A DNA stretch of 64,000 nt from Candidatus Latescibacterota bacterium (GTDB lineage: Bacteria; Latescibacterota; UBA2968; GCA-2709665), in assembly GCA_965237675.1 (NCBI GenBank), contig OZ250150.1, forward strand, positions 5,472,001 to 5,536,000, written 5' to 3'. The notes beneath the pieces were generated by a model. The model had not been told where the DNA came from. It ran no database searches and saw only the letters and a program-made list of their open reading frames with translations. The position numbers and the translations under genes were made by a program. Below are positions 4,625 through 35,368 of the stretch, one piece after another (the stretch's first letter is position 1; every line of letters starts with the position of its first letter).

Positions 4625-4639
4625 AGATCCCGTGCGTAG

Positions 4640-5230: not shown

Positions 5231-5266
5231 TTCGGATAATCCATCAGGGTGGATATAACTTTCAGT

Positions 5267-5285
5267 TGTGGCAATTACTGCGAAA
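5267..5285. promoter_or_regulatory. putative WYL operator (degenerate)
   Basis: TGTGGCAATTACTGCGAAA, variant of TGTCGCA-N5-TGCGACA. Confidence 0.5.
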
Positions 5286-5693
5286 AAGAATGCAGCGATC
5301 AGTCGACAGCGGTCAGCCAAAAAACGCAAAGGCGATCTATTCACGTCAGCGCATCTAGAGAATCTGTAGGGGCAACCCTTGTGGTTGGCCAGGTCGCGGG
5401 TGACTGCATGCAGCGGGCAGCGACATCGGGTCTTGTAGGGGCGACCGGCCGGTCGCCCTCGTTACGATCGAGCAGCGGTAAACAGTCAGCGTAACGCAAT
5501 CAGTCAAACAATCGAGGTCCGCGGGCCGCAACGCGAATCACTTCGATTTCTTCCAGGCGGAACAAGCGTTCACAGCAGGCCAAAATATGTAACACCATGA
5601 CGTTGAGGGAACGCATGGCGAGAGAATCAGTTGACAACGCGCATCAAATCTCGTAGTAATATTGCAGGTAATCAACCGAAACGGAGGCTTCCG

Positions 5694-5948
5694 GTGAAAA
5701 CCGCTCTCGTTCAAATCGGGAATTCGCGCGGCATCCGTATCCCCACGGAGTTCCTGGAACAGTGCCAACTTCGAGACGTCGTGGAACTCGAACTTCGCGG
5801 GGGTCACTTAATCATCCGTCCGACTACCCAAACCCGAAGCGGTTGGGAAGACGCCTTTCGCAACATGCGCATACACCAGGACGATACGCTTCCTGATGAA
5901 ACATATCGGTCTGCTACAGAATGGGACACTACGCAGTGGGAATGGTAG
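5694..5948 (+). CDS. mazE: AbrB/MazE-family antitoxin
   Basis: VQIGNSRGIRIP motif; overlaps toxin start. Confidence 0.9.
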   Translation: MKTALVQIGNSRGIRIPTEFLEQCQLRDVVELELRGGHLIIRPTTQTRSGWEDAFRNMRIHQDDTLPDETYRSATEWDTTQWEW

Positions 5949-6265
5949 TTGCGCGTTTCGACGTCTGCCAGGTGGGGCTCGATCTTGCACAAGGGCGGGA
6001 GATTCAGAAAACGCGCCCTTGTGTTGTAATATCTCCCGATGAGATGAACAGGCATATCGGAACCGTCATCGTTGCCCCGCTGACTACAAAAGGTCGCGCC
6101 TATCCCACCCGTATCCCTCTCCGTTTTCAGAGAAAAAGCGGACAGATCGTGCTCGATCAGGTACGCACGGTTGACAAAACCCGCCTGGTACGTCGTCTGG
6201 AAAAATCAGCGACAAGGCTGCCCTCGAAGTCCTGGCCGTGCTGAGGGAGATGTTCGCGCGAGTAG
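5942..6265 (+). pseudogene. mazF: PemK/MazF toxin, frameshifted near the C-terminus
   Basis: GREIQKTRPCVVISPDEMN..LDQVRTVDK; tail KISDKAALEVLAVLREMFA is in another frame after about 6200. Confidence 0.85.
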
Positions 6266-6406
6266 GTTTTGCGCGTTCGAGGACCTTAACCAGCATATTT
6301 GCGACGCGGCGCGGCACGGGTATCCCCAGGGCGTTCCTGGAACCGTGCCAACTTCTTACAGTAAGCGGAAGTTGAACAGTCACTCAAACCGGAAGGGAGA
6401 ACCTGA

Positions 6407-6628
6407 ATGAACGCAGCAAGCGAATTGTCCGAACGGCAGGCCCGGCTTGAAGGCATCATTGAGCAAATGGACCGCCGCTTTGAGTCCATTGATCGCCGCC
6501 TGGATTCCATCGACCGCCGCCTTACGGGCATCGAGTCCAGCATGCGTCAGGGCTTTTTCTGGATCGTCGGCATTCAGATTACCACCCTCTTGACGCTTGG
6601 CGCGTTGATTCTCATCAAGCTCGGATAG
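6407..6628 (+). CDS. small coiled-coil, membrane-anchored protein
   Basis: Heptad SIDRR repeats plus C-terminal TM helix; GGAG RBS. Confidence 0.7.
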   Translation: MNAASELSERQARLEGIIEQMDRRFESIDRRLDSIDRRLTGIESSMRQGFFWIVGIQITTLLTLGALILIKLG

Positions 6629-6714
6629 CCACCCGCCTCCCGAAAGAACACCCAAGTGAACGCCATCGCCCACACAAACGCCGACATCACCAACCTGTCT
6701 AGCAGACAGCCAGA

Positions 6715-6734
6715 CCACCGAAGTGAGGGGAGAT
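6715..6734 (-). CRISPR. orphan half copy of the type I-C array repeat
   Basis: CCACCGAAGTGAGGGGAGAT, 20/20 identical to positions 18-37 of the array repeat. Confidence 0.85.
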
Positions 6735-6771
6735 GGGGACGGCTTTGCCGCGGTCCTTCACGACGCGGTAT

Positions 6772-6808
6772 GAGTCGGTCCTTGTTCTGATGGAAGATTC
6801 TCGACGTG
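6772..6808 (-). repeat. solitary CRISPR-like repeat (family B)
   Basis: gagtcggtccttgttctgatggaagattctcgacgtg. Confidence 0.85.
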
Positions 6809-6836
6809 TCCGCCTTCGATTGTTCATTTAAGCCTC

Positions 6837-7160
6837 TCATGGGATGCCTGCCGCTGCTCCAAACGCCTCTTGTGCTTCCCGTATCTTGACGTCCAACAAC
6901 GCCTCTTGTATCTCCTCTTGTATGTCCTGCTCCGCTTGCGTAAAGACATCGGCGGACCGCCGCCGGTAAACTTCCGTTCGGAATTCTTGGTTGTCCTCCC
7001 TGATCTTGTCTTGAAAAGCTTCCCGTACCGCCACTTCCATATCCGTCGCTATCGACGGGTTTTCTAGCACGGCATTCTTTACCGCCTGCTTCAGTATTTC
7101 TCGCGGTTCCCCTTTTTGTGCCCCAGCGTCCCACAACACCCGTACCGCCTGCTTCAGCAT
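6837..7160 (-). CDS. small helical hypothetical protein (cassette cargo)
   Basis: 107-aa ORF between two family-B repeats. Confidence 0.55.
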   Translation of the reverse strand: MLKQAVRVLWDAGAQKGEPREILKQAVKNAVLENPSIATDMEVAVREAFQDKIREDNQEFRTEVYRRRSADVFTQAEQDIQEEIQEALLDVKIREAQEAFGAAAGIP

Positions 7161-7198
7161 TTCTCACCTTGGATTGCTCATTTAAGCCCTCCCAGATG

Positions 7199-7235
7199 GT
7201 TTAAATCCTTGTTCTGATAGAAGATCTTCACCGGG
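7199..7235 (-). repeat. solitary CRISPR-like repeat (family B)
   Basis: gtttaaatccttgttctgatagaagatcttcaccggg. Confidence 0.85.
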
Positions 7236-7236
7236 A

Positions 7237-7424
7237 TTAGCGGCGGCACCTGGCGGTGCGTTTTTCAGCCGCTCGTTCGGCGTCGGCTTTGGCCCACAGG
7301 GCCAACTGGGACAAGGTAGGAACCGGCAGGCCGCCTTGTAGTCGGCAGGAGCAAACGGCGTCCCGTCGGGATGCCAGCCGCGGCCGAATATCTTCGTGTA
7401 CTTTTCTTTAGGTAGGGTAGGCAT
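7237..7424 (-). pseudogene. small WHxDGTPF-motif protein, probably frameshifted (paralog of 15018-15227)
   Basis: WHPDGTPFAPADYKAA; homologous tail LPVPTLSQLALWAKADAERAAE is in another frame ending TAA at 7239-7237. Confidence 0.6.
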
Positions 7425-7427
7425 AGA

Positions 7428-7464
7428 GATTCAATCCTTGTACTGATGGAAAATTCTCGCCGGG
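7428..7464 (-). repeat. solitary CRISPR-like repeat (family B)
   Basis: gattcaatccttgtactgatggaaaattctcgccggg. Confidence 0.85.
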
Positions 7465-7470
7465 TCTATC

Positions 7471-7560
7471 TCAATCGAACCAATCCCGGGGCGTAAAGTA
7501 TTTGATTCCAATAACCACCACAAGAATGACAGCAAGCAAGAGTATAAATCCCAAAATCAT
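7471..7560 (-). CDS. 29-aa single-TM microprotein (cassette cargo)
   Basis: MILGFILLLAVILVVVIGIKYFTPRDWFD; stop 6 nt before a repeat. Confidence 0.45.
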   Translation of the reverse strand: MILGFILLLAVILVVVIGIKYFTPRDWFD

Positions 7561-7572
7561 AGCGGCCCGTAT

Positions 7573-7732
7573 CAGCCCGTTGATAAAGTCCATCCGGGCT
7601 GCGTCCGGTCCTTGTGGCCGAAATACTGCGTTGCACTCCCTCTCCGAATCCCCGGATTCGACGCGGTCGCGCGCCTTGTCTTCGGCCACAATGACTCGGC
7701 CTCGCCTGCAGAGCGACTTTTTCAACGGACTG
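7573..7732. mobile_element. 160-bp MITE
   Basis: Terminal inverted repeats CAGCCCGTTGATAAAGTC / GACTTTTTCAACGGACTG; four copies in the window. Confidence 0.85.
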
Positions 7733-7749
7733 CTATATACTTGTTTTCC

Positions 7750-7785
7750 GTTTCAGTCCTTGTTCTGGGGAAGATTCCGAGCGGG
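7750..7785 (-). repeat. solitary CRISPR-like repeat (family B)
   Basis: gtttcagtccttgttctggggaagattccgagcggg. Confidence 0.8.
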
Positions 7786-7810
7786 ACTGTGGGTTGGGCC
7801 ACGGCCGCTT

Positions 7811-8362
7811 TTATTCATCTCCGCGGATCCTGGCCAGCGCCTCGCTCGCAGCATCTGCCATGAAATCCAGAGAGTCCTTAAGATTCTCGCGTATCCATTC
7901 GAGATACCTGACCGCCCGTTGCTCTCGAAACTCACCGAGTTGCCGGATGATCGTCTCCCCCAGACCGGTGCCCAAAGGGTATCGGTCTCTGGCCATGTGC
8001 TCGAAAACGCTCTCGAGCAGATTCAGCAGGTGTTGGCGAATTTCCTCCGAATCCGGTGAGGGTCTCCAGACGTAACGCGGGTTTTCCCAGGACACCCACT
8101 CGTCGGGTCGACCGGCTTGCACGCGCCGTTCCTGTTCCCAGCCGCCATGGCGCATCACCGGCCCGATCGGGATGCGATCGCGATCGGGCCGGCGATGTGG
8201 ATGGTTCGCACAATAGGTGTAGAAGGGATTCTCTATCGCGATGTCCCTGATCTCGCAATAGGGCGGTATGCTCTTGTCAGCGTGCCGCGACCAGTCGCGC
8301 TCGCCCTGGTTCGTTCGATTGAACCAACAGGTTCCGCAACAGTCGGATCCTCCGTTGGGCAT
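7811..8362 (-). CDS. hypothetical protein with Cys-rich N-terminus
   Basis: 183-aa ORF, CCGTCWFN..YCEIR..YCANH, GGAGG RBS. Confidence 0.75.
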   Translation of the reverse strand: MPNGGSDCCGTCWFNRTNQGERDWSRHADKSIPPYCEIRDIAIENPFYTYCANHPHRRPDRDRIPIGPVMRHGGWEQERRVQAGRPDEWVSWENPRYVWRPSPDSEEIRQHLLNLLESVFEHMARDRYPLGTGLGETIIRQLGEFREQRAVRYLEWIRENLKDSLDFMADAASEALARIRGDE

Positions 8363-15014: not shown

Positions 15015-15051
15015 GTTTCAATCCTTGTTCTGGTGGAAGACGTTCGACGAT
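15015..15051 (-). repeat. solitary CRISPR-like repeat (family B)
   Basis: gtttcaatccttgttctggtggaagacgttcgacgat. Confidence 0.85.
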
Positions 15052-15338: not shown

Positions 15339-15375
15339 GTTTCGATCCTTGTTCTGGTGGATCTACATTTGCGGG
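15339..15375 (-). repeat. solitary CRISPR-like repeat (family B)
   Basis: gtttcgatccttgttctggtggatctacatttgcggg. Confidence 0.75.
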
Positions 15376-21543: not shown

Positions 21544-21580
21544 GTTTCAATCCTTGTTCTGATGGAAGATTCCCGACGGT
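21544..21580 (-). repeat. solitary CRISPR-like repeat (family B, best-conserved copy)
   Basis: Minus strand ACCGTCGGGAATCTTCCATCAGAACAAGGATTGAAAC, 37 nt, ATTGAAAC end. Confidence 0.9.
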
Positions 21581-23002: not shown

Positions 23003-25672
23003 GTTTCAATCCGCTCCCCCCACCGAAGTGAGGGGAGATGTCATCTCGGGCGCGTGCGCGAAGTCCTTCCACGAGTTTCAATCCGCTCCCCCCACCGAAG
23101 TGAGGGGAGATATTCAGGATGTTTCCGCGTCTATCGTTCCGTCTCCGGTTTCAATCCGCTCCCCCCACCGAAGTGAGGGGAGATATGGACGAAGAAGTCA
23201 TACACTACGACTCCCGGATAGGTTTCAATCCGCTCCCCCCACCGAAGTGAGGGGAGATTTTTATGATGGACTGGATAGACGCCGAAAGAAACAGTTTCAA
23301 TCCGCTCCCCCCACCGAAGTGAGGGGAGATCTGTATCCGTGCGCCTCATCGCCCTCGACCTCTCACAAGTTTCAATCCGCTCCCCCCACCGAAGTGAGGG
23401 GAGATCAGCGCGGGTATGCCTTCCTCGCGCACGACATCCAAAGTTTCAATCCGCTCCCCCCACCGAAGTGAGGGGAGATGAATCTGACGGGTATCGTACC
23501 CGCCGTCCCACTCGAGTTTCAATCCGCTCCCCCCACCGAAGTGAGGGGAGATCCTTCGCGTATGACGAGGGCCTTGATCCTTTCATGAGACAGTTTCAAT
23601 CCGCTCCCCCCACCGAAGTGAGGGGAGATCGCTTGCTCGGTGGCTGAGAGTTGCGATACTTACGTGTTTCAATCCGCTCCCCCCACCGAAGTGAGGGGAG
23701 ATCTCCCAGGCGGCACAATGGCGGTTAGTGGGAACCAGGTTTCAATCCGCTCCCCCCACCGAAGTGAGGGGAGATCGCCGGGCGGCGACCTGTGGGAAGC
23801 GTCGGGGATGGTCGTTTCAATCCGCTCCCCCCACCGAAGTGAGGGGAGATGCCGTGGGCGTTTTCATTCCGGGAAAGGCTGACATGTTTCAATCCGCTCC
23901 CCCCACCGAAGTGAGGGGAGATCAGGGGCCGCTTGCCGGGGTTACCATCAAGGATCCGCGTTTCAATCCGCTCCCCCCACCGAAGTGAGGGGAGATCTCT
24001 GTCGGGCATGGCGAAAAGAACCAACAAAAGCAAGTTTCAATCCGCTCCCCCCACCGAAGTGAGGGGAGATATCCTTATCTCGCGCCGGCACTGTTGGGTA
24101 CGACGAGTTTCAATCCGCTCCCCCCACCGAAGTGAGGGGAGATTTAAACCGGGGCCACAATACAGGAGGGTAAATAATGGTTTCAATCCGCTCCCCCCAC
24201 CGAAGTGAGGGGAGATGTCGGCCGGAATTCTTGCCGAACACGATAGCGCAGTTTCAATCCGCTCCCCCCACCGAAGTGAGGGGAGATTAATGCCTGATTT
24301 TACTGGCGAACAAAAGAAAAAGTTTCAATCCGCTCCCCCCACCGAAGTGAGGGGAGATGGGCGCACAGATCGCCTCTGAGCGTTCCTTTTGTGGTTTCAA
24401 TCCGCTCCCCCCACCGAAGTGAGGGGAGATTCCTGTCTTCATCCGTGAATACATATCCTTCAGGCATGTTTCAATCCGCTCCCCCCACCGAAGTGAGGGG
24501 AGATCTACGATGCGGTATCGGATGTCGGTGCCTGCAATGTTTCAATCCGCTCCCCCCACCGAAGTGAGGGGAGATAGACAGCGGGTGGGCATTGACGACT
24601 GACGCGATAGGTTTCAATCCGCTCCCCCCACCGAAGTGAGGGGAGATTTGTCTGCCGGACGCGGCGCAATGCCGTCGCCATAAGTTTCAATCCGCTCCCC
24701 CCACCGAAGTGAGGGGAGATCCCGAAATGCAAGGGTGGTGGGACAAGTGCACTCAGGACGTTTCAATCCGCTCCCCCCACCGAAGTGAGGGGAGATGCGC
24801 GATGACGCCAAGACAAAAGTCATTCACAATGTTTCAATCCGCTCCCCCCACCGAAGTGAGGGGAGATTCGTAACCGTGCACGAACTGCTCAAAAGCGTCG
24901 ATGGTTTCAATCCGCTCCCCCCACCGAAGTGAGGGGAGATCCACGCCCCGCGCGGGTTCGCGCAACTCGTAGGAATGTTTCAATCCGCTCCCCCCACCGA
25001 AGTGAGGGGAGATTGCCTGTCTCCTCTTGAATCAGTGACGCGCTCAGGTTTCAATCCGCTCCCCCCACCGAAGTGAGGGGAGATTCATTTTCGTGCCTAC
25101 CTGCACAGCGAAAGACACGGTGTTTCAATCCGCTCCCCCCACCGAAGTGAGGGGAGATTCCCCGACCCCTCCCCTCCCACGGCCGTTCCTCCACGTTTCA
25201 ATCCGCTCCCCCCACCGAAGTGAGGGGAGATCAGGTTGCTCGACAAGGCCGTCCCAGGGGCTACGTGTTTCAATCCGCTCCCCCCACCGAAGTGAGGGGA
25301 GATGTGTCGCCTGTGGCCCTGGGGGTTTTGACCCGTACAGGTTTCAATCCGCTCCCCCCACCGAAGTGAGGGGAGATCCGTGGTGTCCTGGGCCTTGCCC
25401 TGGGTCTATACTGGTTTCAATCCGCTCCCCCCACCGAAGTGAGGGGAGATGTGCCGTCGCGGGCGTACGTCACCTCGGAACCAAAGGTTTCAATCCGCTC
25501 CCCCCACCGAAGTGAGGGGAGATCCAGGGGCGTCCGTGGGAGAGGCGGGTGGTGGGTCCGGGTTTCAATCCGCTCCCCCCACCGAAGTGAGGGGAGATGT
25601 ACGTGGTCGCGGCGGCTTACGCCGCGCTGGGTACGGTTTCAATCCGCTCCCCCCACCGAAGTGAGGGGAGAT
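23003..25672 (-). CRISPR. type I-C CRISPR array, 37 repeats / 36 spacers
   Basis: 37-nt repeat ATCTCCCCTCACTTCGGTGGGGGGAGCGGATTGAAAC (minus strand), period about 73 nt, counted by eye. Confidence 0.98.
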
Positions 25673-25852: not shown

Positions 25853-26140
25853 CTATAAAACCAGCGGACCCGATAGGTCCACGGGTTTACTGATACCGTG
25901 ATGCTCTGTCTCCTTTCCGGTGTCTTCGTCCAGGTGATAGATTCGAAGGGAGTCTTGCTCATGATCGATTTCCTTTAACAAACGATTTCGGAGCACGGCC
26001 CATTCCGTTTTTCCGACCTTACATTCAAACAGCGACTTTTGTACTCGTACGCCGAAATCCTCACAGGCTCTTGCGACGCGCCGCAGTCGCTTTTGTCCAG
26101 CCCGGTCAATCGTCGAGACGTCGTACGCGATCAGTTTCAA
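25853..26140 (-). CDS. cas2: CRISPR-associated endonuclease Cas2
   Basis: IAYDVST..RLRRVARACEDFGVRVQKSLFEC..DSLRIY; probable TTG start. Confidence 0.95.
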   Translation of the reverse strand: MKLIAYDVSTIDRAGQKRLRRVARACEDFGVRVQKSLFECKVGKTEWAVLRNRLLKEIDHEQDSLRIYHLDEDTGKETEHHGISKPVDLSGPLVL

Positions 26141-26170
26141 TCCGCTCTCCTGCAATAGAACAGGTGAAAT
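26134..26170 (-). repeat. 37-nt array-repeat mimic over the cas2 RBS/start
   Basis: ATTTCACCTGTTCTATTGCAGGAGAGCGGATTGAAAC; 16/17 match at the 3' end, 7/9 at the 5' end. Confidence 0.75.
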
Positions 26171-26176
26171 CCTACT

Positions 26177-27238
26177 TCATTTGGGTATGTACGGGATATA
26201 GTCGGGAATATCGCCACGGAGCTTTCGCGCCAGCAACCTGGCTTGAATGCTGAACACCTGCCCTAAACGGATATTTTCCTTGAACAGCGCGTGCTTTACC
26301 TCGGTTTGCTTCCGGCGTTGCCAGGCCTGGATAACCTCTTTCCTGCCCCGGTCGGTAAACTCCACTGCGCCGCCTTCGCGCTCGAGGAAGTGTCCAGGTT
26401 CAATCTGGCGACGATTGATCAGGGTCAATGCCAGCCGCTCAGCCAAACAGGGTCGGAACTCTTCCATCAGATCCAGCGCACAAGCCGGCCTACCAGCCCT
26501 TGTGGCATGGAGCCAGCCGACGTACGGGTCCAGCCCAGCGGTCGTCAACGCGGCCAAACAGTCGTGCCGCACCAGTGCGTAGATGAAGGAAAGCAGGCAG
26601 TTTACCCGGTCACGGGGCGGACGCCGCGAGCGCGTAATAAATCTGAAGTCTTCCCGCTGTTGTTTAAGCATGTACTGGAAGGCCGAGAAATATTTCCTGG
26701 CGCCCAGACCTTCCATACCCCTGATCGGATCGAGTGCCTCCCGAAGCCCGCAATTCGTTGCAACGGGTGGAGCATTGCCGAGTTGATCGATCAGCCGGGC
26801 TAATTCATCTGCGGCACCCACCAACTCCCTGCGGTCCGAATCCGTCTCGGCTTCGCGGCCGGACCGCAATAGATTGGAACGCGAATTCTGCAGCTTTCCG
26901 GCGACGAACTGCCGGGCAATGCGAGCAGCAACCTCCGGGCTGTCCGCCGCCGCGTATTGAGCCCGGCGGAGCAGATACCGGGTGTCTCCGCTTCCCAGAA
27001 CCTGCGCCAGCAGATGTCCGTTCTCGGTATGGTAATGGACGGCAACCTGATGCTGCCAGCACAGGGACATTGCAGGTGGCGTAACCACGACCCGACCGAA
27101 CGCGCAGATACTTTCCAGGTGATGAATCGGCACGGTCAATCGTGTTTGTTTTTCGATTTCGACCCGGAGCGTCAAATGATCCCTGTGGACAACAGTGCCC
27201 GGAGTCGTCAGATACAGGGTGTTCTGGATGATAGCCAT
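26177..27238 (-). CDS. cas1: type I-C Cas1
   Basis: NTLYLTT, RGMEG..A..YF, RSRRPPRDRVNCLLSF, ALDLMEEFR. Confidence 0.97.
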   Translation of the reverse strand: MAIIQNTLYLTTPGTVVHRDHLTLRVEIEKQTRLTVPIHHLESICAFGRVVVTPPAMSLCWQHQVAVHYHTENGHLLAQVLGSGDTRYLLRRAQYAAADSPEVAARIARQFVAGKLQNSRSNLLRSGREAETDSDRRELVGAADELARLIDQLGNAPPVATNCGLREALDPIRGMEGLGARKYFSAFQYMLKQQREDFRFITRSRRPPRDRVNCLLSFIYALVRHDCLAALTTAGLDPYVGWLHATRAGRPACALDLMEEFRPCLAERLALTLINRRQIEPGHFLEREGGAVEFTDRGRKEVIQAWQRRKQTEVKHALFKENIRLGQVFSIQARLLARKLRGDIPDYIPYIPK

Positions 27239-27281
27239 AACAGGTCCGTAAGCCAGGTTTGGCCTGTGGAACCAGGCAAAT

Positions 27282-27983
27282 TTAGTCTGAGGTGTCGAAC
27301 ACCTCCCGGCCGGCTTGAAGAAGGATGGGCGGAGCGCTGGTTATTTCGGGAAGGCAGTAATGAAAAAGCGAGCACTCCGAACATTGTGGCTTATGGACGG
27401 CTTGGGGGACCACTTCCTCTTCGATAAGCCGATGCACGGCTTCGATGGCGTGTTCTGTGAGTCGGCGCAGATCGCCGTCAAACTCAACTTCTCGCCGGCG
27501 CCTGCTCGTGGCGTGGTAGATAGCCCCTCGGGGAATCTCCAATTCGAACATTTCTTCGAGGCACAACGCTTGTGCGCAAAGCTGGGCGTCATCGTTGTCG
27601 AACTTGCGGCGTTTGCCCTTCTTATATTCAACTGGATAGACGCTTTCGACATTATCCGGCAAATATCGGGTTTTTTTTCGCTTAGAAGAACGTTTGAGTT
27701 TCACCTCAACAATATCGCATTTTCCAGAGAGCCCCAGCCTTTGGGACCATACCGGCAATGCCCGAAGCACTTCTGTATGTGCCGCCTTCTCGTACCCTGG
27801 TACATCGGCCTGCTCGTGAAATTGACTGCCGATTAGCGTGTGCTCGTTTTCGGTGAAAGTACCCTCGACATGGATCAAGCCCGCCCGCCGAGGGCAATAG
27901 AGGTACTGGTTGATAGCGGAGAGCGGAATGATCCGCTCTCCGCTATCGTACGGGTGGATCGGCTGGAAAACGGATTCATTCAT
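27282..27983 (-). CDS. cas4: Cas4
   Basis: YCPRR, GKCDIVE, PVEYKKG, QLCAQALCLEEM, CSECSL..C. Confidence 0.95.
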   Translation of the reverse strand: MNESVFQPIHPYDSGERIIPLSAINQYLYCPRRAGLIHVEGTFTENEHTLIGSQFHEQADVPGYEKAAHTEVLRALPVWSQRLGLSGKCDIVEVKLKRSSKRKKTRYLPDNVESVYPVEYKKGKRRKFDNDDAQLCAQALCLEEMFELEIPRGAIYHATSRRRREVEFDGDLRRLTEHAIEAVHRLIEEEVVPQAVHKPQCSECSLFHYCLPEITSAPPILLQAGREVFDTSD

Positions 27984-28929
27984 GACGCCTATTTAAGCAA
28001 ATGCCGGCGGGCAGATCGACACTGTCCCATCCGCAGCCAACCTCATAATCGGCGAAGGATTGCGGGAATTCCACGCTGTCCTTCAGTTTTACCTCTATTC
28101 CCTCAAAAAGCTTGTGGGCATGGGCACAGCCGAGGCGGGCTTCGCGTTTTTTTTGTTCGGCATTATTTTCATGTTGGGTGCCAACGTGCTCAAAGTCGTA
28201 AATCCCTCGCACCACCATTTCACCGCGAGCAGCGGAGCGGTCATGCTCGAACATCTGGTTGAGCGCATCGAAGAGGACATCGAGGTCGGCGTTAGTGAAC
28301 CCGGTGCGTTCGGCAAAAGCAGGCGAGACGTAAACCTTGGCGGCGAAGAGGGCATAGGGTACGATGTGCTTATTGCCCATGGTGCGTTCCTTGTCTGCGT
28401 CCTCCTCTTTTGTGACGGCACCGCGAGTAATGGAGATCTCCAGTGGCGTGATAGGATGGTACGACTGGCCAAAGGTGAACTGCACCGGACCGCGCACCTG
28501 ACCCCAAGCGGAGCCTTTCATGATGCTTTCCCCTACGCCGAGTACACCGCCGAACGCACGCACATCAAAGAACTCACGGCACAGCCATTTCATGGCAGCT
28601 TCTTGCTTCTCGTTCTTGGAAGCACCCGAGTCCAAACTCTCGGCACTTTTCTCAACGCCATTGTCGATCTCGTTATTGATTATGGCACCCTGCCTTATCA
28701 ACAGATTATAGCCGTTGGCATCATCTTCAGCCCGTTCGGGCGAGAACATTTCAACGAAGTTGCGCACCTTACGCTTGAGGCACACGTCGGAGACGAGACC
28801 CCGATTGGTGTTGTGATCTTGACGCGGCATGTTACCAGCATCGGGATCGCCATTGGGATTTCCGTTGGTGACCTCGAAGAGCAGCAAAACGTCGTGCCGA
28901 TTGGTGAGAATATCGTTGTTTCGATTCAT
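27976..28929 (-). CDS. cas7: Cas7/Csd2
   Basis: NGNPNGDPDAGNMPR, SDVCLKRKVRN, FDVRAFG, GQVRGPVQ, FEHDRSAARG. Confidence 0.97.
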   Translation of the reverse strand: MNRNNDILTNRHDVLLLFEVTNGNPNGDPDAGNMPRQDHNTNRGLVSDVCLKRKVRNFVEMFSPERAEDDANGYNLLIRQGAIINNEIDNGVEKSAESLDSGASKNEKQEAAMKWLCREFFDVRAFGGVLGVGESIMKGSAWGQVRGPVQFTFGQSYHPITPLEISITRGAVTKEEDADKERTMGNKHIVPYALFAAKVYVSPAFAERTGFTNADLDVLFDALNQMFEHDRSAARGEMVVRGIYDFEHVGTQHENNAEQKKREARLGCAHAHKLFEGIEVKLKDSVEFPQSFADYEVGCGWDSVDLPAGICLNRRHE

Positions 28930-28954
28930 TGATGAATTCCTTTCTGTGAAAGAT

Positions 28955-30802
28955 TTATTGGTTGCTTTCCTTTTTTTCTTGTGCTGCCTCGCGGGCGACG
29001 CGGTCGGCGGCTTTTTGCTGGTAAAAACCGAGGGCGAAACGCCCCTGCGCGTGCAAATCCAACGTACGGGGGAATGGGTAGATTTTGGTTGACACTTCTT
29101 GAATAGCCTCGTCCAAGAAGCGGTCATGTCCTTTGTACTTATCGGACTTGCGGATATTGTTGAGATGGTGGCGGTTGAGCTTGAGGAGGACCGGAAACAC
29201 CGAGGCTGGCGAGGCCATGGCAGTACCAAAATAACGCTCGGCGACTCCGGCTCCTTCGAGCTGATAATCATGTGCCTTGGCTTGGGCCTCGGTGAGCACA
29301 GCGAGCAACCGTCCGCATTGATAGGCGGCATCTTCCGCCTTTGCGTCCTGTTGTTCAGTAATTTCCATGGTGTTTCCCTTTCGGTTTCGATTGAGAACGA
29401 GCTTTGCCAAGGCTAACCGGGAATGGTTCAACAATGCCGTGCTTCCATCGCGTGCCATATCAACGCGCAGGCGGTTCAACAGGGGATGCAAAAGAGCAAG
29501 TGAGGGCGCGGTCCCTTCCAGCGCGGCGCGAAATAACTGAGCGGTCACTTCCGTCTGCAAATCTTTTGCGTCGCGTACTGTAGTGCAAGCCAGTCGGAAC
29601 AGGGCTAATGGCGGCATCTTTTCTTTGCCAGTGGGCAGGCGCACCGGCTCCAGATCGAGATCGCGGAACCAGCGCCGCAGATTTTCCGTGGCGGTTTCCA
29701 GCGTCGTTTGCATCCAGTGGCGCACAACGATGCGGCCACTATTGCCCGCGAGAGTGACGGCATGGAACTGCTCCTGCCGCATTGCATCGCGTTCCTGTCC
29801 GACCCACGGGGACTTCAAAAAATGCGCCACTGCCATGGGATCGGCTTGGTTGAGTAAAACACCCCAATCGCTGGTGGCGTCCGTTTCATTCCGAGTCCAA
29901 AAACAGCATGATGCCTGCCCTAAGCGGATGGAATGATCTTTGCGGCCAAGCATCGCGTTGAGCGCGGTGCAATAGGCGGTGGCCGCCCGGGTGGAGGTGG
30001 AAGCATTTAGACTTTGCTCAAAACCGTAGGAGGCGAAGGCATCCTTATCAAACGAGACAATCGACGCGCCGAAGGCTTGGGTGTTGGGCACGCCTTGGAC
30101 TTTGGGGTTGTGGGTCATCGCAATAGGCTGATCGCTCTCCCCGGTGACCAAACAGAGTCCGTGGGGCGCATCCGCCTCGTGGTCTTCATTTTCCTTCTCG
30201 AATTGATTCCGCCAAAAGGGCCGGATGTGAATTTCATCCTCCAGAAGCAATTGCTCCTCCACGCGGAATGAAAAGTTGTCCGGCCCTAGTTTAACCTCTC
30301 CGCCATCGGCTTTGGTGATCCACCAAGCAGGTTTCTCCTTGGGCTTGGCGTCAGAACTGATACCCCAGCGCATAAAGGACAGCATCTGTCCCGGTTCGGG
30401 CTTGAACGCCAACAGGGTCTTGAGCGTCAGACTGAGTGTGTGCTCCTGCGCCTTTTCAATCTGCGCCCAAAAGTCATTGTACTTACGCAAATTGTTCTCA
30501 TTACGGTCCTTCCGCTTCTTTTCGGACATAGGTTGTTCCGGGTTCGCGTCAAATCCGAACACGGCCGTAATGCCATCCGCCATGAACTCGGCCACCCCGC
30601 CAGCCACCTTGGGCCGAGTTGTCTTTGGACAATCGAACTCCTTGCCTCGGTTCCTTTCCCCCTCGGTTTCCACCGGCCCTTGGCCCACGAGATTGCCCAT
30701 CGTGTCCAAAGTAACGATCCATCGCACTGCCTTTGGTTTGAAAGCTAGGTTATTCAGCAGTTTTCGAGATTTCGCGAAATCGTTCAAATGTTGCAGCAGC
30801 AT
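28955..30802 (-). CDS. cas8c: Cas8c/Csd1
   Basis: CLVTG, IVSFDKDAFASYG, NSGRIVVR, AYQCGRLLA, QGRFALGFYQQ. Confidence 0.95.
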   Translation of the reverse strand: MLLQHLNDFAKSRKLLNNLAFKPKAVRWIVTLDTMGNLVGQGPVETEGERNRGKEFDCPKTTRPKVAGGVAEFMADGITAVFGFDANPEQPMSEKKRKDRNENNLRKYNDFWAQIEKAQEHTLSLTLKTLLAFKPEPGQMLSFMRWGISSDAKPKEKPAWWITKADGGEVKLGPDNFSFRVEEQLLLEDEIHIRPFWRNQFEKENEDHEADAPHGLCLVTGESDQPIAMTHNPKVQGVPNTQAFGASIVSFDKDAFASYGFEQSLNASTSTRAATAYCTALNAMLGRKDHSIRLGQASCCFWTRNETDATSDWGVLLNQADPMAVAHFLKSPWVGQERDAMRQEQFHAVTLAGNSGRIVVRHWMQTTLETATENLRRWFRDLDLEPVRLPTGKEKMPPLALFRLACTTVRDAKDLQTEVTAQLFRAALEGTAPSLALLHPLLNRLRVDMARDGSTALLNHSRLALAKLVLNRNRKGNTMEITEQQDAKAEDAAYQCGRLLAVLTEAQAKAHDYQLEGAGVAERYFGTAMASPASVFPVLLKLNRHHLNNIRKSDKYKGHDRFLDEAIQEVSTKIYPFPRTLDLHAQGRFALGFYQQKAADRVAREAAQEKKESNQ

Positions 30803-30804
30803 TA

Positions 30805-31602
30805 TCAAATCCCTTTTGGTTCGAGAATTTCAACTTCGTCGGGATGACAAACCAAGGTGGAATCCTTCATCTTGGCGCGGAAGAAACAGGCTTCGGGTCG
30901 AGCCAATTCGCCGACAAAACGTGCGGTATTCTTCTTGGGTCCCAGTTCATCGGGGCGTTTCCAGCGAAAGCCCTGAGCACGTGCCGTGGGCGGAAAAACA
31001 TCATAGAGCATCAAGCCCAAGTCCTCCACGGGCTGTCGCCAACTGATGCCCAGCTCAGTAGCTCGCCCTTCCAGCGCGGCCTGGGGATCATCAACCCACT
31101 CGAAATCCGCCGCGAATTCACGCATACCCAAGGCGGGCCGGTGGAAGCACTTGCCCTGCTGAGCGCGGCGCTTGAACTCGACGAAATACTTCACCGGTGT
31201 GTCGTTCGGGCGATTCGCCAACGGTGTGGTACGCAGTTCGGCACTGATGATGTATTCCACCTCTTGGAGAGCCAACATATTGCGCTGAGTGCCGTCAGGT
31301 GCGCCGCCCCCAGCCTCAATGGGCGATACCTTCTCCGGCTGAGCCATCCATTGGCCGACATTGCGCAGGCTGATGACTGACTGCACTTCATTGCGCCGAA
31401 TCGAGGCCCAGCGTCCTCGCCGAACCACCCGGACGACAGCGACGCAATAACAAACTTGAGGTTCCCAAAACACGGCTTCCAAAATGCCACGTGCGGCAGA
31501 GGGCGTCATCACCGAATAGCTGACGCGCTCCACTTTCATTTCGGGGCGAGTGAAACAAGCCCAATCGCCCCATACTCTGAGATGTACATGATTGTTTTTC
31601 AT
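30805..31602 (-). CDS. cas5: Cas5c (Cas5d)
   Basis: VWGDWACFTRPEMKVERVSYSVMTPSAARGILEA. Confidence 0.97.
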   Translation of the reverse strand: MKNNHVHLRVWGDWACFTRPEMKVERVSYSVMTPSAARGILEAVFWEPQVCYCVAVVRVVRRGRWASIRRNEVQSVISLRNVGQWMAQPEKVSPIEAGGGAPDGTQRNMLALQEVEYIISAELRTTPLANRPNDTPVKYFVEFKRRAQQGKCFHRPALGMREFAADFEWVDDPQAALEGRATELGISWRQPVEDLGLMLYDVFPPTARAQGFRWKRPDELGPKKNTARFVGELARPEACFFRAKMKDSTLVCHPDEVEILEPKGI

Positions 31603-31640
31603 GTTTCAATCCATTCCTCATACTGATGGAAAGGGGAAAC
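31603..31640 (-). repeat. repeat mimic directly abutting the cas5 ATG
   Basis: GTTTCCCCTTTCCATCAGTATGAGGAATGGATTGAAAC-ATG. Confidence 0.7.
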
Positions 31641-31682
31641 CTTCCTGCGGTGTGCGGATGCTAAACACAATTCGACCTCGCT

Positions 31683-31866
31683 TCATAACAAGAAATCCTC
31701 GGTCGGACGTTGGTCGATAACTACGCCGAGATGTTCGTGATAGGCTGCTTCATCCAGTACGCTCAACTCCATACCGGGCAACACCGGACGAAGCAGTCCC
31801 ATTTTATCAGCTTTCTGAAAGTCGCGCAAATGAAGATTCACCATAAAACGTTGGAGGTCGCGCAAA
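31683..31866 (-). pseudogene. cas3: Cas3 C-terminal fragment separated by IS256
   Basis: LRDLQRFMVNL... rejoins in frame with ...RKDLR when the IS and one TSD are removed. Confidence 0.85.
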
Positions 31867-33291
31867 GGGCAAGTACTATTATTAGTTGAAATAGCAGAGG
31901 CGTTCAATCAGCGGCGAAAGCGTTTTGCGTGTCATGATCGAGCGCGAGATGATTGCGTAGGGCAAGTCTGAGTACGGGAAGAAAGCGGTATCCTTTGATC
32001 CTCCGCAATCGGGGCTCGATATCCAACAGCGCGGCTGCCAACCACCGATATCGCTGATCGGAGTTGTTCCATCGTTTCACATTACGGGTGCGCTGTGCGA
32101 TCATGGCGTTGAGGGATTCGATGCAGTTGGTGGTGCGAAACGATTGCTTGAGTTGTGGCATCAGTCCCAGGCGATGGAGGGTGAGGGTTTCTTCGAGCCC
32201 TTCCTCCAGGCTGTTGAGGGCCGATGCATTCATCAGGGTCAGGGAGGGCTTGAGGGCATACAGCGCGGCTTTGGCTTCTTTGTAGGTGTCCATGTCGTAG
32301 GCACTTTGAAGCGCTTTCTTGACCTCACTCTGCTGTGTCTTGGGCAAATAGGCGATCACGTTCTCCCGTTTGTGCCACTGACAGCGTTGAATGGCGACAT
32401 AACCGGAAAGGGCTTTTGTGAGGGCACTATACAAGCCCTTTGAGCCGTCGATGAGGCAAAGCAGCCCTTGGTGATACTGCAATCCGCGATCGATGAGCGA
32501 ATCGACAAACTGGCGGCACACGCGCTCATTTTCGCTGGCGGCCTGCACGAACCCCAGCGGGATCTTGTGCCCGTCGATGGTCACGCCAAGGGCGATGATC
32601 ATTTCCTGATCGGCAAAGGTCTTGCCATCCATAAACAGCCCCACCAGGTCATAGCCCGAAAGAAACCGTTCTTGAAACTGTCTCAGCTTGGCCGCCGATG
32701 CCCTGATGAACCGCCTCGAGACACTCGATGAAGACAAGCCAAACGCCTCGGGTATCGCCTCTGCGCAACTGGCGTAAGAACGCGTCGCAATGCCGCTGAC
32801 CACGCGCAGCAGCAACCCTCCGTCCATGTTTCTGGGTCGCTGCAAGTGGTGATATACCTCCAGAGGAACTTCCTCATTGGCTTCCACGTCACGCACCCTG
32901 GGCACCGTAATGGGCACTTTTTGATCCGACAGATACACCGATCCCGGTTGAGCGCCCCACCGACGATTCGGGGTCTTGCCCGCTTTACGACTGTGTTTCT
33001 TGCCCGTCAACCCGGCAACCTCTTGCTGCAAGATTTCTGCCACAGCGTCCAGACCAAGCGGGATCAGCGCTTGGATCAATGCCACACGGACGTCAACATC
33101 CTCCAGGGCTTCTCCCAGGAAGGCGCCAGACGTCACCCCGGCATCCCTATTCGACTTGACTTCACGGAGGTTCGACGGTACTTTTTTCATCACAGGCTCC
33201 TTTGGTTGAGGATACGGTCTTCTTCGTCGAGACTGCCGTATCCAATTTACATCGGAGCCTCTTCTATTTCAACTAAGATAGGCACAATCCC
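31867..33291 (-). mobile_element. IS256-family insertion sequence
   Basis: 8-bp TSD CGCGCAAA (31859-31866, 33292-33299); about 34-bp imperfect TIR GGG...TTAGTTGAAATAG.AGAGG. Confidence 0.93.
31904..33193 (-). CDS. IS256-family transposase
   Basis: FMDG, LIDGSKGL, QRCQWHKRENV, RTTNCIES. Confidence 0.95.
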   Translation of the reverse strand: MMKKVPSNLREVKSNRDAGVTSGAFLGEALEDVDVRVALIQALIPLGLDAVAEILQQEVAGLTGKKHSRKAGKTPNRRWGAQPGSVYLSDQKVPITVPRVRDVEANEEVPLEVYHHLQRPRNMDGGLLLRVVSGIATRSYASCAEAIPEAFGLSSSSVSRRFIRASAAKLRQFQERFLSGYDLVGLFMDGKTFADQEMIIALGVTIDGHKIPLGFVQAASENERVCRQFVDSLIDRGLQYHQGLLCLIDGSKGLYSALTKALSGYVAIQRCQWHKRENVIAYLPKTQQSEVKKALQSAYDMDTYKEAKAALYALKPSLTLMNASALNSLEEGLEETLTLHRLGLMPQLKQSFRTTNCIESLNAMIAQRTRNVKRWNNSDQRYRWLAAALLDIEPRLRRIKGYRFLPVLRLALRNHLALDHDTQNAFAAD

Positions 33292-35368
33292 CGCGCAAAT
33301 CCTTGCGAGTAAAGCGCAGACCCTCTATTTGAGGGCGGCTTCGGATAGCGGCTACCTTTTCCAAGGCTTTCTCCCTTGGCGCAATTACGGCCTGGGTGTC
33401 GTCAGAAATTACCTTTGCCTTGCGGGCTACTTCACGGAAACGCAATGCCTCCCGATCCTCCTGAATGGAGCATTCCCGTTGGCGATGATGATCCGTGGGC
33501 ACGTATTGAAAAAGCTCGCCAAAGTAACGACTGAACAGATCCGGCTCGTTGGTCAAGTCATCCGCAGACAACTGATCCAGCAACCGCACCGCAATGTCCG
33601 TGGCTACCCGATACACGCCGCCGGGCAGCTTGGCGTCCGTTGGCCGGAAAACCACCACGCGCCCCTTGCCCGGTAGGCGGCCTTCCCGATTGCACCGTCC
33701 AGCTGCCTGCACAATCGAATCCAGCGGCCCCAATGCGCGGTAAACCAACGGGAAATCAATATCCACCCCGGCCTCTACCACCTGAGTAGATACCAACCAG
33801 CAGAACCTGCCTTCCCTCAAACGCCGATGGACTTTTTTTAACACCTGGGTTCGATGTTCTGCACACATTGAGGAAGAAAGATGGAATACGCTTCTCAGTT
33901 TCGCTACCAACGCTTCTCTGCTCAATTCCCCCTCGTTTAGAGAAACCCGCAGCCGTTCCCACCATTCGGTAGCCTGTCTGCGCGTATTCACGACGCCCAA
34001 GGCTTGAGGCTCGCTCGCCCATTCCGCAGCCAATTCTGACCAATCGCTCTCCGTGGTTCGCACCTCGTACACTACCCGGCCCAACTTCTGAAACAACTCG
34101 CCATGCTGTGACGCGACTTCCTTCATTTCATCCGCATCAAACCCATTCGACAACGACGTGCTGCGCCTAAAGGCCGGTTGGGTAGCGGTAGAGAAAACGA
34201 AACTCGTGCGATAGTGTTTCTCAAGATCGCGTAGCACGTGCAGGAGCGGATTGAGCAGATACGAAGGCAGGGTCTGCACCTCATCCAGCAATACCACGGC
34301 ATTCGCGATGTTGTGCAGTTTCCGGCACTTGGAGGTACGGTTGGCGAAGAGTGACTCGATGAACTGCACCGAGGTAGTGACGACAATTGGCGCATCCCAG
34401 TTCTCCGCCGCCAGTTCCCCTGGGGATCGGACTTGCTCCTCATCGTCATCCTTTGCGACCACGGCCGAATGGTGTTCAATCACGATGCCTTCGTCTTGGG
34501 GATCGAGTATGTTGCGGTATTCGGCGGCGTTCTGCTCAATAATTGACAGGTAAGGTATCACCACTATAACCCGCTGCATTCCATGCGCCCGCGCATGTTC
34601 CAAGGCAAAGGCCATGCTCGATAGTGTTTTGCCCCCACCCGTCGGCACGGTCAAAGAAAAGAAGCCTGCTGGCTCCGCCGCCTTCGCCAAGCAGTCTTCA
34701 AACACTCTGTTGCGCAACTTATTGAGTTCGCCGGACGCATCAAACTTGCTCCGGTGCGCTTGCAGTCGCTCCAGCAACAACGCGGCATCCATCTTAACTG
34801 GATGTCGTTGCCGACGGATGTTGAATTGTTCCGTATCCAGAAAATCCGCATCAACCAGGCAGGAAAACAACATCCGCACGTATAATTCCGTGGTGGCCTT
34901 GTCTTTCGCGGGATTGGCAAATTCCGGATCGACTATCTCGTCCCGAATTTCCCCCAGTTCTGCTTCAAATCGCTTTACCAGAGTATCGAGCCGACTGATG
35001 GCATCGTACTTCTTTCCGCAAACCAATGCCTGCAAATCACTCACGTCATGTAGTCCCGCGTGATGCCCCGCGATGGCAAAGGCTGGGCCGAGCCAGTTCT
35101 GCCGAAAAGCCAGCGCGGCACCATACATCGCATGATGAGTTTCAACTGATCCCGGGCGCTCGCCTGCCAGATATTCCTGGAATGGATCCCGATACTTACC
35201 TAAGTCGTGGAGCAGCCCGGTCCATTTCGCAGCCAGACCGAACGGTTCGCCGAATTCACGAGCCTTGTCCGCCACGTTGCGCAGATGCTCGGATAACGGT
35301 TGCCAGCGCGATCTGTCGGAATCGCGTTCCCTCATAGCTGTTTCGGCTGTGTGGGCGTAATAGTTCAT
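33292..35368 (-). pseudogene. cas3: Cas3 HD nuclease-helicase, truncated by IS256
   Basis: YYAH, LLHDLGK, HHAGL, LVDADFLDT, PTGGGKT, DEVQ, QAAGRCNREG. Confidence 0.95.

What the first reader, a model, noticed from the sequence alone, without database searches (positions are those of the whole stretch)
6715..6808. Hybrid mini-array: family-B repeat, 37-nt spacer, then half an I-C repeat, 16 kb from the array
Seen: a perfect 20-nt half of the I-C repeat (6715-6734) is separated from a family-B repeat by 37 nt (crRNA sense ATACCGCGTCGTGAAGGACCGCGGCAAAGCCGTCCCC), the spacer length of the main array. Inference: either the whole 6735-23002 block lies inside the original array, with this as the displaced trailer, or this is a regulatory crRNA mimic like CreA/crlRNA. 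It physically links the two repeat families.
Basis: partly seen in the sequence, partly recalled or inferred. Interest (0 to 1): 0.8.

Follow-up and report, generated by a model that had tools for sequence, protein, structure and literature searches.

The report
Decayed junction of two CRISPR arrays
The "hybrid mini-array" is real, but it is most likely a dead leftover from where arrays of two CRISPR types (I-C and I-B) were once joined at this locus, not a working guide or regulatory RNA.

Summary
Positions 6715-6734 are a perfect 20-nt half of the type I-C repeat. They are followed by 37 nt and then by a 37-nt "family-B" repeat (6772-6808). Independent assemblies carry the same unit, so it is not a misassembly.

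Family B is the repeat of a type I-B (Cas6b) system. Congeners hold B arrays of 37-84 copies, and in the three genomes with cas6b these lie beside a cas6b operon. This genome has no I-B genes and no B array, only about a dozen scattered B relics on one strand.

A/B junctions recur in the genus: 10 in 5 of the 8 genomes (9 fetched stretches) examined. One near relative carries this unit plus a second one with a full I-C repeat. The two families share GTTTCAATCC, and the I-C array's trailer flank abuts a B repeat in that relative.

The CreA/crlRNA reading fails its tests:
- There is no seed or PAM target above the shuffled null.
- The 5' handle is mutated (6 of 11).
- The I-C hairpin is cut in half.
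- The fold is not special (z = 0).
- One strain variant lacks the unit.

Best reading: an inert recombination and erosion relic (about 0.75).

More interesting is the context. B repeats sit 2-5 nt upstream of a conserved family of small genes that is under purifying selection.

The parts
6715..6734 (-). Truncated type I-C ('A') repeat: the 5' 20 nt in crRNA sense. It holds the 5' arm, the UUCG loop and 4 nt of the 3' arm of the hairpin.
   Evidence: perfect, unique outside the array; sequence.
6735..6771 (-). 37-nt spacer-length sequence (S37).
   Evidence: unique. (no target above the null). (outside this genome, only G012's copy of the same unit).
6772..6808 (-). Family-B (type I-B) repeat relic B1. 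The core is intact; the last 10 nt in crRNA sense (the handle region) match at 6 of 10.
6809..6842 (-). X2: a second copy of the ribosome-binding site, ATG and first codons of the ORF107-type gene, fused to B1. From its ATG (6826) a 41-codon frame runs through the hybrid to the TAG at 6699-6701.
   Evidence: two X copies here and in G012; frame read.
6837..7160 (-). ORF107: 107 aa, no Pfam family, flanked by the direct repeats X1 and X2.
7161..7198 (-). X1: direct-repeat partner of X2.
7199..7235 (-). Family-B relic B2.
   Evidence: E = 9.6e-10.
7182..7424 (-). ORF80: a member of the small 'WHPDGTP' protein family whose C-terminal half is out of register with the family. It starts 3 nt after B3.
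7428..7464 (-). Family-B relic B3.
   Evidence: E = 1.5e-11.
7750..7785 (-). Family-B relic B4 (has one deletion).
   Evidence: E = 3e-6.
15015..15051 (-). Family-B relic. An intact small WHPDGTP gene (15018-15227) ends in it.
15339..15375 (-). Family-B relic (degenerate).
   Evidence: (CRISPR-DR7, E = 0.021).
21544..21580 (-). Best-preserved family-B repeat, between the DUF4432 gene and the DUF2752 gene. Identical copies sit in G012 and G008 at the same place.
23003..25672 (-). Type I-C array of 37 identical repeats; the leader end is at 25672.
25853..35368 (-). Type I-C operon: cas3, an inserted IS256-type transposase, cas5d, cas8c, cas7, cas4, cas1, cas2.

Best explanation
The unit is an inert fossil: the eroded junction between a type I-C array fragment and a type I-B array fragment.

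The locus has hosted both CRISPR types in this genus. Their repeats share the 10-nt end GTTTCAATCC and lie in the same orientation. Recombination or deletion between an A repeat and a B repeat therefore gives 'A - normal spacer - B' junctions (inferred).

Later events cut the I-C repeat in the middle of its hairpin, mutated the handle end of the B repeat, and placed genes and mobile elements among the B relics.

This genome has lost the I-B genes. Its I-C Cas5d has neither a proper hairpin nor a proper handle to work on here. No functional crRNA is therefore expected from the unit (inferred, not measured).
For: 1. B is a genuine type I-B repeat.
- Congeners hold arrays with 37-84 matches and a period of about 74 nt.
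- Cas6b was found in 3 of 15 genus genomes (G010, G006, G003), each on the contig that holds its B array.
- The G010 operon reads cas6b-cas8b-cas7-cas5-cas3.

2. This genome has no I-B effector genes and no B array.

3. G012 is 98% identical around the unit and carries the same unit. It also has a second one with a full A repeat (2 mismatches), a 36-nt spacer and a B repeat, and B and A arrays that lie adjacent.

4. I counted 10 A/B junctions within 45 nt in 5 of the 8 genomes (9 fetched stretches) examined. Both orders occur.

5. The flank that abuts the last A repeat here (up to 22992) abuts B repeats at two places in G012. This fits A/B recombination at the shared 10-mer.

6. A small A fragment beside the B repeat of the DUF4432 gene shows graded erosion: about 3.5 repeats in G008, 1 in G012 and 0 here.

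7. Nothing points to function.
- The best genome-wide match of the spacer is 26 of 37, against a shuffled maximum of 25-26.
- The first 16 nt match at 14, against 14-15 for shuffles.
- In crRNA sense no TTC-flanked site in the window matches 9 or more of the first 12 nt.
- The fold z-score is 0.00, and there is no promoter-like site or Rfam hit at the unit.

8. A 916-nt contig of run X16 joins 6728 directly to 6980. Some strains therefore lack the spacer and B1.

9. Runs X3 and X5 show substitutions inside the spacer, at 6751 and 6752.
Against: The half repeat is perfect (20 of 20) while B1 differs from the best B copy at 7 of 37 positions. For an old relic one would expect some decay in the A half too. 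B1 may simply belong to a 'GAGTC' sub-family also seen in G011.

The unit is kept in G012 and in several metagenome strains. These are too close (about 98%) to show constraint.

A contig from an RNA library (X15) covers the unit. Transcription is therefore not excluded, although the tool warns that DNA can be present in such libraries.

B relics elsewhere in the locus are conserved beyond the neutral expectation, so 'relic' does not mean that every B copy is functionless.

The recombination event itself is inferred, not observed.
Confidence: 0.75

Rival explanations
1. A regulatory crRNA-like RNA (CreA / CreR / crlRNA type). The hybrid is transcribed and loaded into the I-C Cascade, and it represses a promoter through partial complementarity.
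For: It has two repeat-like elements around a spacer-length sequence, in crRNA orientation. It is kept in G012. An RNA-library contig covers it. Passages of Shmakov et al. report mini-arrays in 7% of I-C loci and 18% of I-B loci, and more in composite loci.
Against: No target was found. No genome-wide or local match exceeds the shuffled controls, and in crRNA sense no TTC-flanked site in the window matches 9 or more of the first 12 nt.

The would-be 5' handle matches the I-C handle at 6 of 11. The upstream repeat has no I-C hairpin. The downstream half lacks the 3' arm of the hairpin and the Cas5d cut site (sequence; the processing rules are my recollection of type I-C biochemistry).

The unit lies 19 kb from the cas operon, not inside or beside it. 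The fold z-score is 0. A strain variant lacks it.
Confidence: 0.06
2. The present I-C array once ran on to 6715, and a single 16-kb block (6735-23002) was inserted into it, so the unit is that array's displaced trailer.
For: The orientation is the same. The half repeat is the ancestral variant ('GAAG') that G012 keeps only in the two repeats at the trailer end of its array. The spacer length is within the array's range.
Against: The repeat on the array side of the spacer is B, not A. The interval is a mosaic of B relics and cargo that differs from G012. The trailer flank of the present array is conserved, and in G012 it is bounded by B repeats. No matching left half of an A repeat lies at 23002 or elsewhere; the only other half is at the cas2 start.
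Confidence: 0.1
3. Part of a coding or cis-regulatory unit. Either the 41-codon frame from the ATG at 6826 (with a strong ribosome-binding site in X2) is translated through the hybrid, or the unit is the 3' untranslated tail of ORF107.
For: X2 copies the ribosome-binding site and start of the ORF107-type gene. The frame stays open to 6699. B repeats elsewhere sit 2-5 nt before start codons.
Against: The frame looks like a chance fusion of a 5' gene fragment with array relics. I did not search for homologues. No start codon follows B1 at the usual distance. The X16 variant deletes it.
Confidence: 0.05
4. Chance similarity or an assembly artefact.
For: None.
Against: No shuffle out of 100 gave a match. 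The same unit is present in an independent genome and in contigs of three sequencing runs.
Confidence: 0.01

Closest known systems
[quoted passage not shown] 2023 preprint, PMC10120712; I saw the abstract and passages)
   Same: Repeat-like elements outside the array, near a CRISPR-cas locus, often partly degraded and kept in closely related loci. [quoted passage not shown]
   Different: Here the two repeats belong to two different subtypes, and one of those subtypes is no longer encoded in the genome. The regulatory hallmark, a spacer seed that matches a PAM-flanked promoter, was sought and not found.
CreA antitoxin RNA of CreTA (haloarchaeal type I-B; as summarised in PMC10120712)
   Same: Two degenerate repeats around a spacer-length sequence.
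   Different: As summarised in those passages, CreA lies between cas genes beside its toxin gene, and its spacer matches that promoter. Neither holds here. My recollection, not checked in any call, is that CreA also keeps the nucleotides needed for processing and Cascade loading; here the handle and the hairpin are damaged.
Array recombination and erosion, and over-long 'spacers' caused by insertions (Kupczok, Landan and Dagan 2015, PMC4524480; I saw the abstract and passages)
   Same: Arrays evolve by deletion and by recombination between arrays. Long 'spacers' of 100 nt or more are mostly mobile-element insertions.
   Different: That work treats homologous arrays of a single type. Here the partners are arrays of two subtypes that share only a 10-nt repeat end.
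RNA anti-CRISPRs / solitary repeat units of phages (Nature 2023, PMC10651486; I saw the search listing and the start of the abstract only)
   Same: Solitary CRISPR repeats outside arrays.
   Different: Those lie in viral genomes and mimic the host's active repeat. These lie in the chromosome, and most mimic a system that this genome lacks.

Membership tests
Regulatory crRNA-like mini-array (CreA / CreR / crlRNA) | Two repeat-like sequences separated by a spacer-length sequence | tested here: met
   B relic (30 of 37 against the best B copy), 37 nt, then 20 of 37 of the I-C repeat.
Regulatory crRNA-like mini-array (CreA / CreR / crlRNA) | Spacer seed complementary to a PAM-flanked site in a cas or cargo promoter | tested here: not met
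   Genome-wide best is 26 of 37 and 14 of the first 16, equal to shuffled spacers. In crRNA sense no TTC-flanked site in the window matches 9 or more of the first 12 nt.
Regulatory crRNA-like mini-array (CreA / CreR / crlRNA) | Repeats keep the handle and the processing hairpin of the resident effector | tested here: not met
   The handle is 6 of 11 identical to the I-C handle. The upstream repeat has no I-C hairpin. The downstream repeat is cut inside the stem (sequence). Which nucleotides Cas5d needs is recalled, not tested.
Regulatory crRNA-like mini-array (CreA / CreR / crlRNA) | Location inside or beside the cas operon | tested here: not met
   The unit lies 16.2 kb from the array and 19 kb from cas2.
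Regulatory crRNA-like mini-array (CreA / CreR / crlRNA) | Conservation in related loci beyond that of the flanks | tested here: inconclusive
   It was found only in G012 and in strains about 98% identical. One variant lacks it.
Regulatory crRNA-like mini-array (CreA / CreR / crlRNA) | A discrete processed RNA | not testable with these tools
   Only assembled contigs of RNA libraries were available. They give no strand, ends or level.
Functional type I-C repeat-spacer unit | Spacer flanked by two full I-C repeats | tested here: not met
   One flank is a half repeat and the other belongs to another family.
Type I-B (Cas6b) repeat family, for 'family B' | Forms regular arrays next to a cas6b-cas8b-cas7-cas5-cas3 operon | tested here: met
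   All 3 Cas6b-positive genus genomes carry B arrays on the same contig. G012 has a 76-repeat B array, but no Cas6b was found there with this query.
Orphan / relic array fragment | Same orientation as the arrays, no cognate cas genes, truncated or degenerate repeats, presence varying between strains | tested here: met

The most novel reading that the evidence does not exclude
In this genus the type I-B repeat may have been co-opted as the 5' module of protein-coding cassettes that lie downstream of arrays.

Each of 11 small 'WHPDGTP' genes (about 57-67 aa, mostly 57-64) starts 2-5 nt after a B repeat, and most are followed by another. The genes are under purifying selection. The repeats stay about 81% identical while synonymous sites are near saturation. 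The cassettes persist in genomes without Cas6b.

Array territory would then double as a cassette array whose messages are bounded, and perhaps switched, by CRISPR repeats. Cas6b cleavage would remove the AAGGA ribosome-binding site that lies inside the repeat. The hybrid unit would be a decayed cassette boundary.

A bolder variant: the repeat-flanked genes, and the X-flanked ORF107, are over-long 'spacers' captured by Cas1-Cas2.
Probability: 0.15. Interest if true: 0.75.

Novelty: new member of a known kind. Interest (0 to 1): 0.35.

Why it matters
The unit itself matters little. It adds a clear case of arrays of two CRISPR subtypes fusing and eroding at one hot spot. It also warns that a mini-array with a spacer of the right length need not be regulatory.

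The surroundings may matter more. A chromosomal region of about 29 kb carries about a dozen same-strand relics of a repeat whose Cas proteins are gone. In the relatives, 11 of 11 small cassette genes begin within a few bases of such a repeat; in this window ORF80 and cas5d do so too.

If those repeats act as processing or translation signals, this would be a use of CRISPR repeats outside immunity. It could be tested directly in any Cas6b-positive relative.

Tried and rejected
Self-target search for the 37-mer: nothing above shuffled controls. Two exact 15-nt matches elsewhere in the genome (E = 0.1) lie in the PAM-distal middle of the spacer, and I take them as chance.

Protospacer and array searches:
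- Exact 37-mer in genome contigs: only G012's copy of the same unit.
- Exact 37-mer in viral contigs: 0.
- 25-mer in metagenome contigs: 0.
- Phage blastn: best E = 6.
- Pattern 'half-A, gap, B core' in metagenome contigs: 0.
These scans need exact matches, so diverged copies would be missed.

Rfam found no hit at the unit. The array repeats give only sub-threshold CRISPR-DR9 hits and two B relics give CRISPR-DR7 hits, all on the minus strand. There is no sigma-70-like promoter in 6200-7800. The fold is not special.

Search for the missing left half of the I-C repeat: only the 17-mer at the cas2 start, plus two hits with 2 mismatches at chance level. A local insertion splitting the repeat is therefore not supported.

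Small-protein function: Pfam found nothing. The database search found 16 unnamed relatives. The ESM Atlas gave no usable hit. The AlphaFold model has pLDDT 74.5. Foldseek against the PDB gave nothing at E <= 0.001.

Literature searches for genes inside arrays or Cas6 cleavage of messages found nothing on repeat-flanked genes. This is not proof that it is unpublished. Supplements were not seen and may list such loci.

I draw no habitat from them.

Full report
WHAT IS THERE

The window is G000:C1:5472001-5536000.

On the minus strand lies a complete type I-C operon (Pfam):
- cas3, 33269-35368
- an IS256/Mutator-type transposase inserted at 31904-33193
- cas5d, 30805-31602
- cas8c/csd1, 28955-30808
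- cas7
- cas4
- cas1, 26177-27238
- cas2, 25853-26155

A leader of about 180 nt follows, then an array of 37 identical 37-nt repeats running from 25672 down to 23003. This is the only such array in the genome. The crRNA sense is the minus strand: the repeat ends in ATTGAAAC, and the weak Rfam hits are all on the minus strand.

THE OBSERVATION

It is confirmed.
- 6715-6734 is a perfect copy of 20 nt of the I-C repeat. It is 1 of 38 matches in the window, the other 37 being the array, and no match appeared in 100 shuffles. It is unique outside the array genome-wide.
- In crRNA sense it is the 5' half: the 5' arm, the UUCG loop and 4 nt of the 3' arm of the hairpin. The following 17 nt match the repeat at only 4 positions, so the break is sharp.
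- 6735-6771 is 37 nt. The array's spacers are 34-40 nt, and 8 of 36 are 37 nt.
- 6772-6808 is a copy of a second repeat family, B.

WHAT FAMILY B IS

In this genome B exists only as scattered single copies, all in the orientation of the array.
- Clear copies: 6772, 7199, 7428, 7750, 15015, 15339 and 21544.
- Weaker copies: 2764, 15905, 19654 and 31603.
- Very weak: 18642.

Among 61 related genomes, 23 match the B core. Regular arrays with a period of about 74 nt are seen in G003 (39 matches), G006 (37) and G010 (69). G012 (84 matches) holds a 76-repeat array. G024 (64 matches) was counted but I did not inspect its spacing.

Cas6b was found in 3 of the 15 genus genomes: G010, G006 and G003. In each it lies on the contig that holds the B array. 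G010's operon reads cas6b, cas8b (CXXC), cas7 (DevR/Csa2), cas5, cas3. B is therefore a type I-B repeat.

G000 has no I-B effector genes. tblastn with G010's proteins found only weak Cas1 and Cas3 matches to the I-C genes, and the Cas6b search found nothing.

THE UNIT IN RELATIVES

G012 is 98% identical over window 6320-7104. It carries the same unit with one substitution in B. One search lists its contig under the record title 'MAG: Candidatus Latescibacterota bacterium'.

G012 also has:
- a second junction with a full I-C repeat (2 mismatches), a 36-nt spacer and a perfect B repeat;
- a 76-repeat B-variant array directly beside a 20-repeat I-C array;
- a cas2 gene split by about 1.7 kb.

Across 9 fetched stretches from 8 genomes I counted A/B pairs no more than 45 nt apart:
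- this window, 1
- G012, 2
- G008, 1
- G011 contig 12, 3
- G001, 3
- none in G009, G015, G010 or G011 contig 34

Both orders occur. Some of these 'spacers' are themselves conserved between G011 and G001.

The sequence that abuts the last I-C repeat here (up to 22992) abuts B repeats at two places in G012. This is the result expected from recombination between an A and a B repeat at their shared GTTTCAATCC.

Beside the B repeat next to the DUF4432 gene, G008 keeps about 3.5 I-C repeats, G012 keeps one and this genome keeps none. That is erosion caught at three stages.

IS IT FUNCTIONAL?

I tested the CreA/crlRNA idea against the criteria in the passages of Shmakov et al. that I read.

- Target. 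The spacer's best match in the genome is 26 of 37, against a maximum of 25-26 for ten shuffled spacers. The first 16 nt match at 14, against 14-15. No top hit has a TTC PAM. In the window, in crRNA sense, no TTC-flanked site matches 9 or more of the first 12 nt.
- Handle and hairpin. The would-be handle is 6 of 11 identical to the I-C handle. The upstream repeat has no I-C hairpin. The downstream half lacks the cut site (sequence; the Cas5d requirements are recalled from the literature, not tested here).
- Structure and signals. The fold z-score is 0.00. No promoter-like site was found, and Rfam has no hit at the unit.
- Location. The unit lies 19 kb from the operon.
- Variation between strains. 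A 916-nt contig of run X16 joins 6728 to 6980, so that strain lacks the spacer and B1. Runs X3 and X5 carry substitutions at 6751 and 6752 inside the spacer. The tool shows only part of the differences, so I make no rate estimate.
- Transcription. A 589-nt contig of an RNA library (X15) covers 6320-6881. Transcription is therefore not excluded, but the tool states that such contigs do not show it.

BEST READING

The unit is an inert junction relic (0.75). The recombination step is inferred. Shown here are:
- the two families;
- the loss of I-B;
- the recurrence of A/B junctions;
- the shared flank;
- the graded erosion;
- the lack of a target.

Against this reading, the half repeat is undecayed (20 of 20) while B1 differs from the best B copy at 7 of 37 positions. 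Four of the differences lie in its first 10 nt. A 'GAGTC' variant of B also occurs in G011, so B1 may belong to a sub-family rather than being decayed.

The unit is not the outermost relic either. A B-like remnant lies at 2764.

THE CONTEXT

This is the more unusual part.

Small-gene cassettes. Between B repeats lie copies of a small protein family with the motif WHPDGTP(Y/F)xPxDY...PVPTPEQ.
- The 12 aligned copies are 57-67 aa. One search lists 20 frames with the motif, some truncated, fused or out of register.
- Only 16 database relatives were found, none carrying more than a 'hypothetical protein' label.
- In 11 of 11 cassettes checked, the upstream B repeat ends 2-5 nt before the start codon. 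The repeats are on average 81% identical.
- The genes show dN/dS mostly 0.06-0.31, with one pair of near-identical copies at 0.52. dS is often 0.6 or above, or saturated.
- The cassettes occur both with Cas6b (G010) and without it (G011, G001, G009).

In this window:
- ORF80 (7182-7424) is a member whose C-terminal half is out of register with the family.
- 15018-15227 is an intact copy.
- ORF107 is flanked by a direct repeat of about 34 nt, X. X is the ribosome-binding site, ATG and first codons of that gene.
- The second copy, X2, is fused to B1. This gives a 41-codon frame that runs through the hybrid.
- A B-like remnant directly abuts the cas5d start codon.

No function was found for the small protein.

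COMPARISON WITH WHAT IS KNOWN

Standalone repeat-like sequences are common. Passages of PMC10120712 give them in 34% of I-C loci and 51% of I-B loci.

Array recombination, deletion and over-long 'spacers' caused by insertions are described in passages of PMC4524480.

The unit is a new example of that kind. Its unusual points are that it joins two subtypes and that one of them is gone from the genome. It fails the membership tests for a regulatory mini-array.

My literature searches found nothing on repeat-flanked protein-gene cassettes. That is not proof of absence, and supplements were closed.

VERDICT

- Observation: confirmed.
- Reading (a): partly right.
- Reading (b): not supported.
- Interest in the unit itself: low to moderate (0.35).
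- The cassette pattern deserves its own follow-up.

Noticed in passing
window 7182-7424 and 15018-15227; L022 (G010) 9351-9527, 9656-9841, 9911-10084; L024 (G011) 4548-6014: A family of small proteins (the 12 aligned copies are 57-67 aa) with the motif WHPDGTP(Y/F)xPxDY..PVPTPEQ. In 11 of 11 cassettes checked in the relatives, each gene starts 2-5 nt after a type I-B repeat, and most are followed by another repeat. dN/dS is mostly 0.06-0.31. There are only 16 database relatives, none with more than a 'hypothetical protein' label, and no fold match.
   Followed up: partly
window 26134-26150: GTTTCAATCCGCTCTCC is the other half (positions 1-17, 1 mismatch) of the I-C repeat. It lies on the ribosome-binding site and probable TTG start of cas2. 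The same 17-mer is at the cas2 start in G012 and G008, and beside a B repeat plus spacer in G001. About 4e-4 such matches are expected by chance in the window (my estimate).
   Followed up: partly
window 31603-31631: A B-like (type I-B) repeat remnant, TTCCATCAGTATGAGGAATGGATTGAAAC in minus sense, directly abuts the ATG of the type I-C cas5d gene. It is absent upstream of cas5 in G012 and of cas6b in G010.
   Followed up: partly
window 7573-7735 (also about 2653-2758, 37526 and 41663): A MITE-like element of about 163 nt. It gives 54 BLAST hits in the genome. It is absent at this site in G012 and in some strains, and its depth in metagenome runs is very high. Two of the window's copies lie right after B relics.
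   Followed up: partly
L030 (G015) about 8538 and 12836; L028/L029 (G001), about 25367 in reversed coordinates; L025/L026 (G008), about 20137 in reversed coordinates: Some solitary I-C repeats carry a palindromic insert of 16-31 nt (TGCCTGC...GCAGGCAGG) inside the run of C's. This is the same position at which the half repeat at 6715 begins. The 20 nt to the left of 6715 (CTGTCTAGCAGACAGCCAGA) loosely resemble such an insert.
   Followed up: no
window 6809-6842 and 7161-7198: ORF107 is flanked by a direct repeat of about 34 nt (X) that is its own ribosome-binding site, ATG and first codons. In G012 the upstream copy is in frame with the gene. This suggests a tandem duplication whose second copy was cut off by B1.
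   Followed up: partly
window 31904-33193: An IS256/Mutator-family transposase gene is inserted between cas3 and cas5d of the I-C operon. In G012, cas2 is split by about 1.7 kb.
   Followed up: no
window 9282-21543: The cargo between B relics differs from G012 (12.3 kb against 4.5 kb). It includes a 945-aa protein with Ig-like/DUF1573 repeats, a DDE transposase, a GmrSD-type restriction enzyme (16175-17995) and an Nmad3-domain protein (its start is near 19643, right after a B-like motif).
   Followed up: partly
window 36373-37482 and 40354-41388: Two paralogous HTH-WYL-WCX regulators lie within a duplication of about 4 kb (repeats D7 and D8, 96-99% identical) just beyond cas3.
   Followed up: no
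window 5726-5772 and 6309-6355: A 47-nt direct repeat (87% identical) lies upstream of two small plus-strand genes. G012 lacks the segment between the copies.
   Followed up: no
window 59461-59815: A tandem repeat with a 142-nt unit, 2.5 copies, the first two identical.
   Followed up: no
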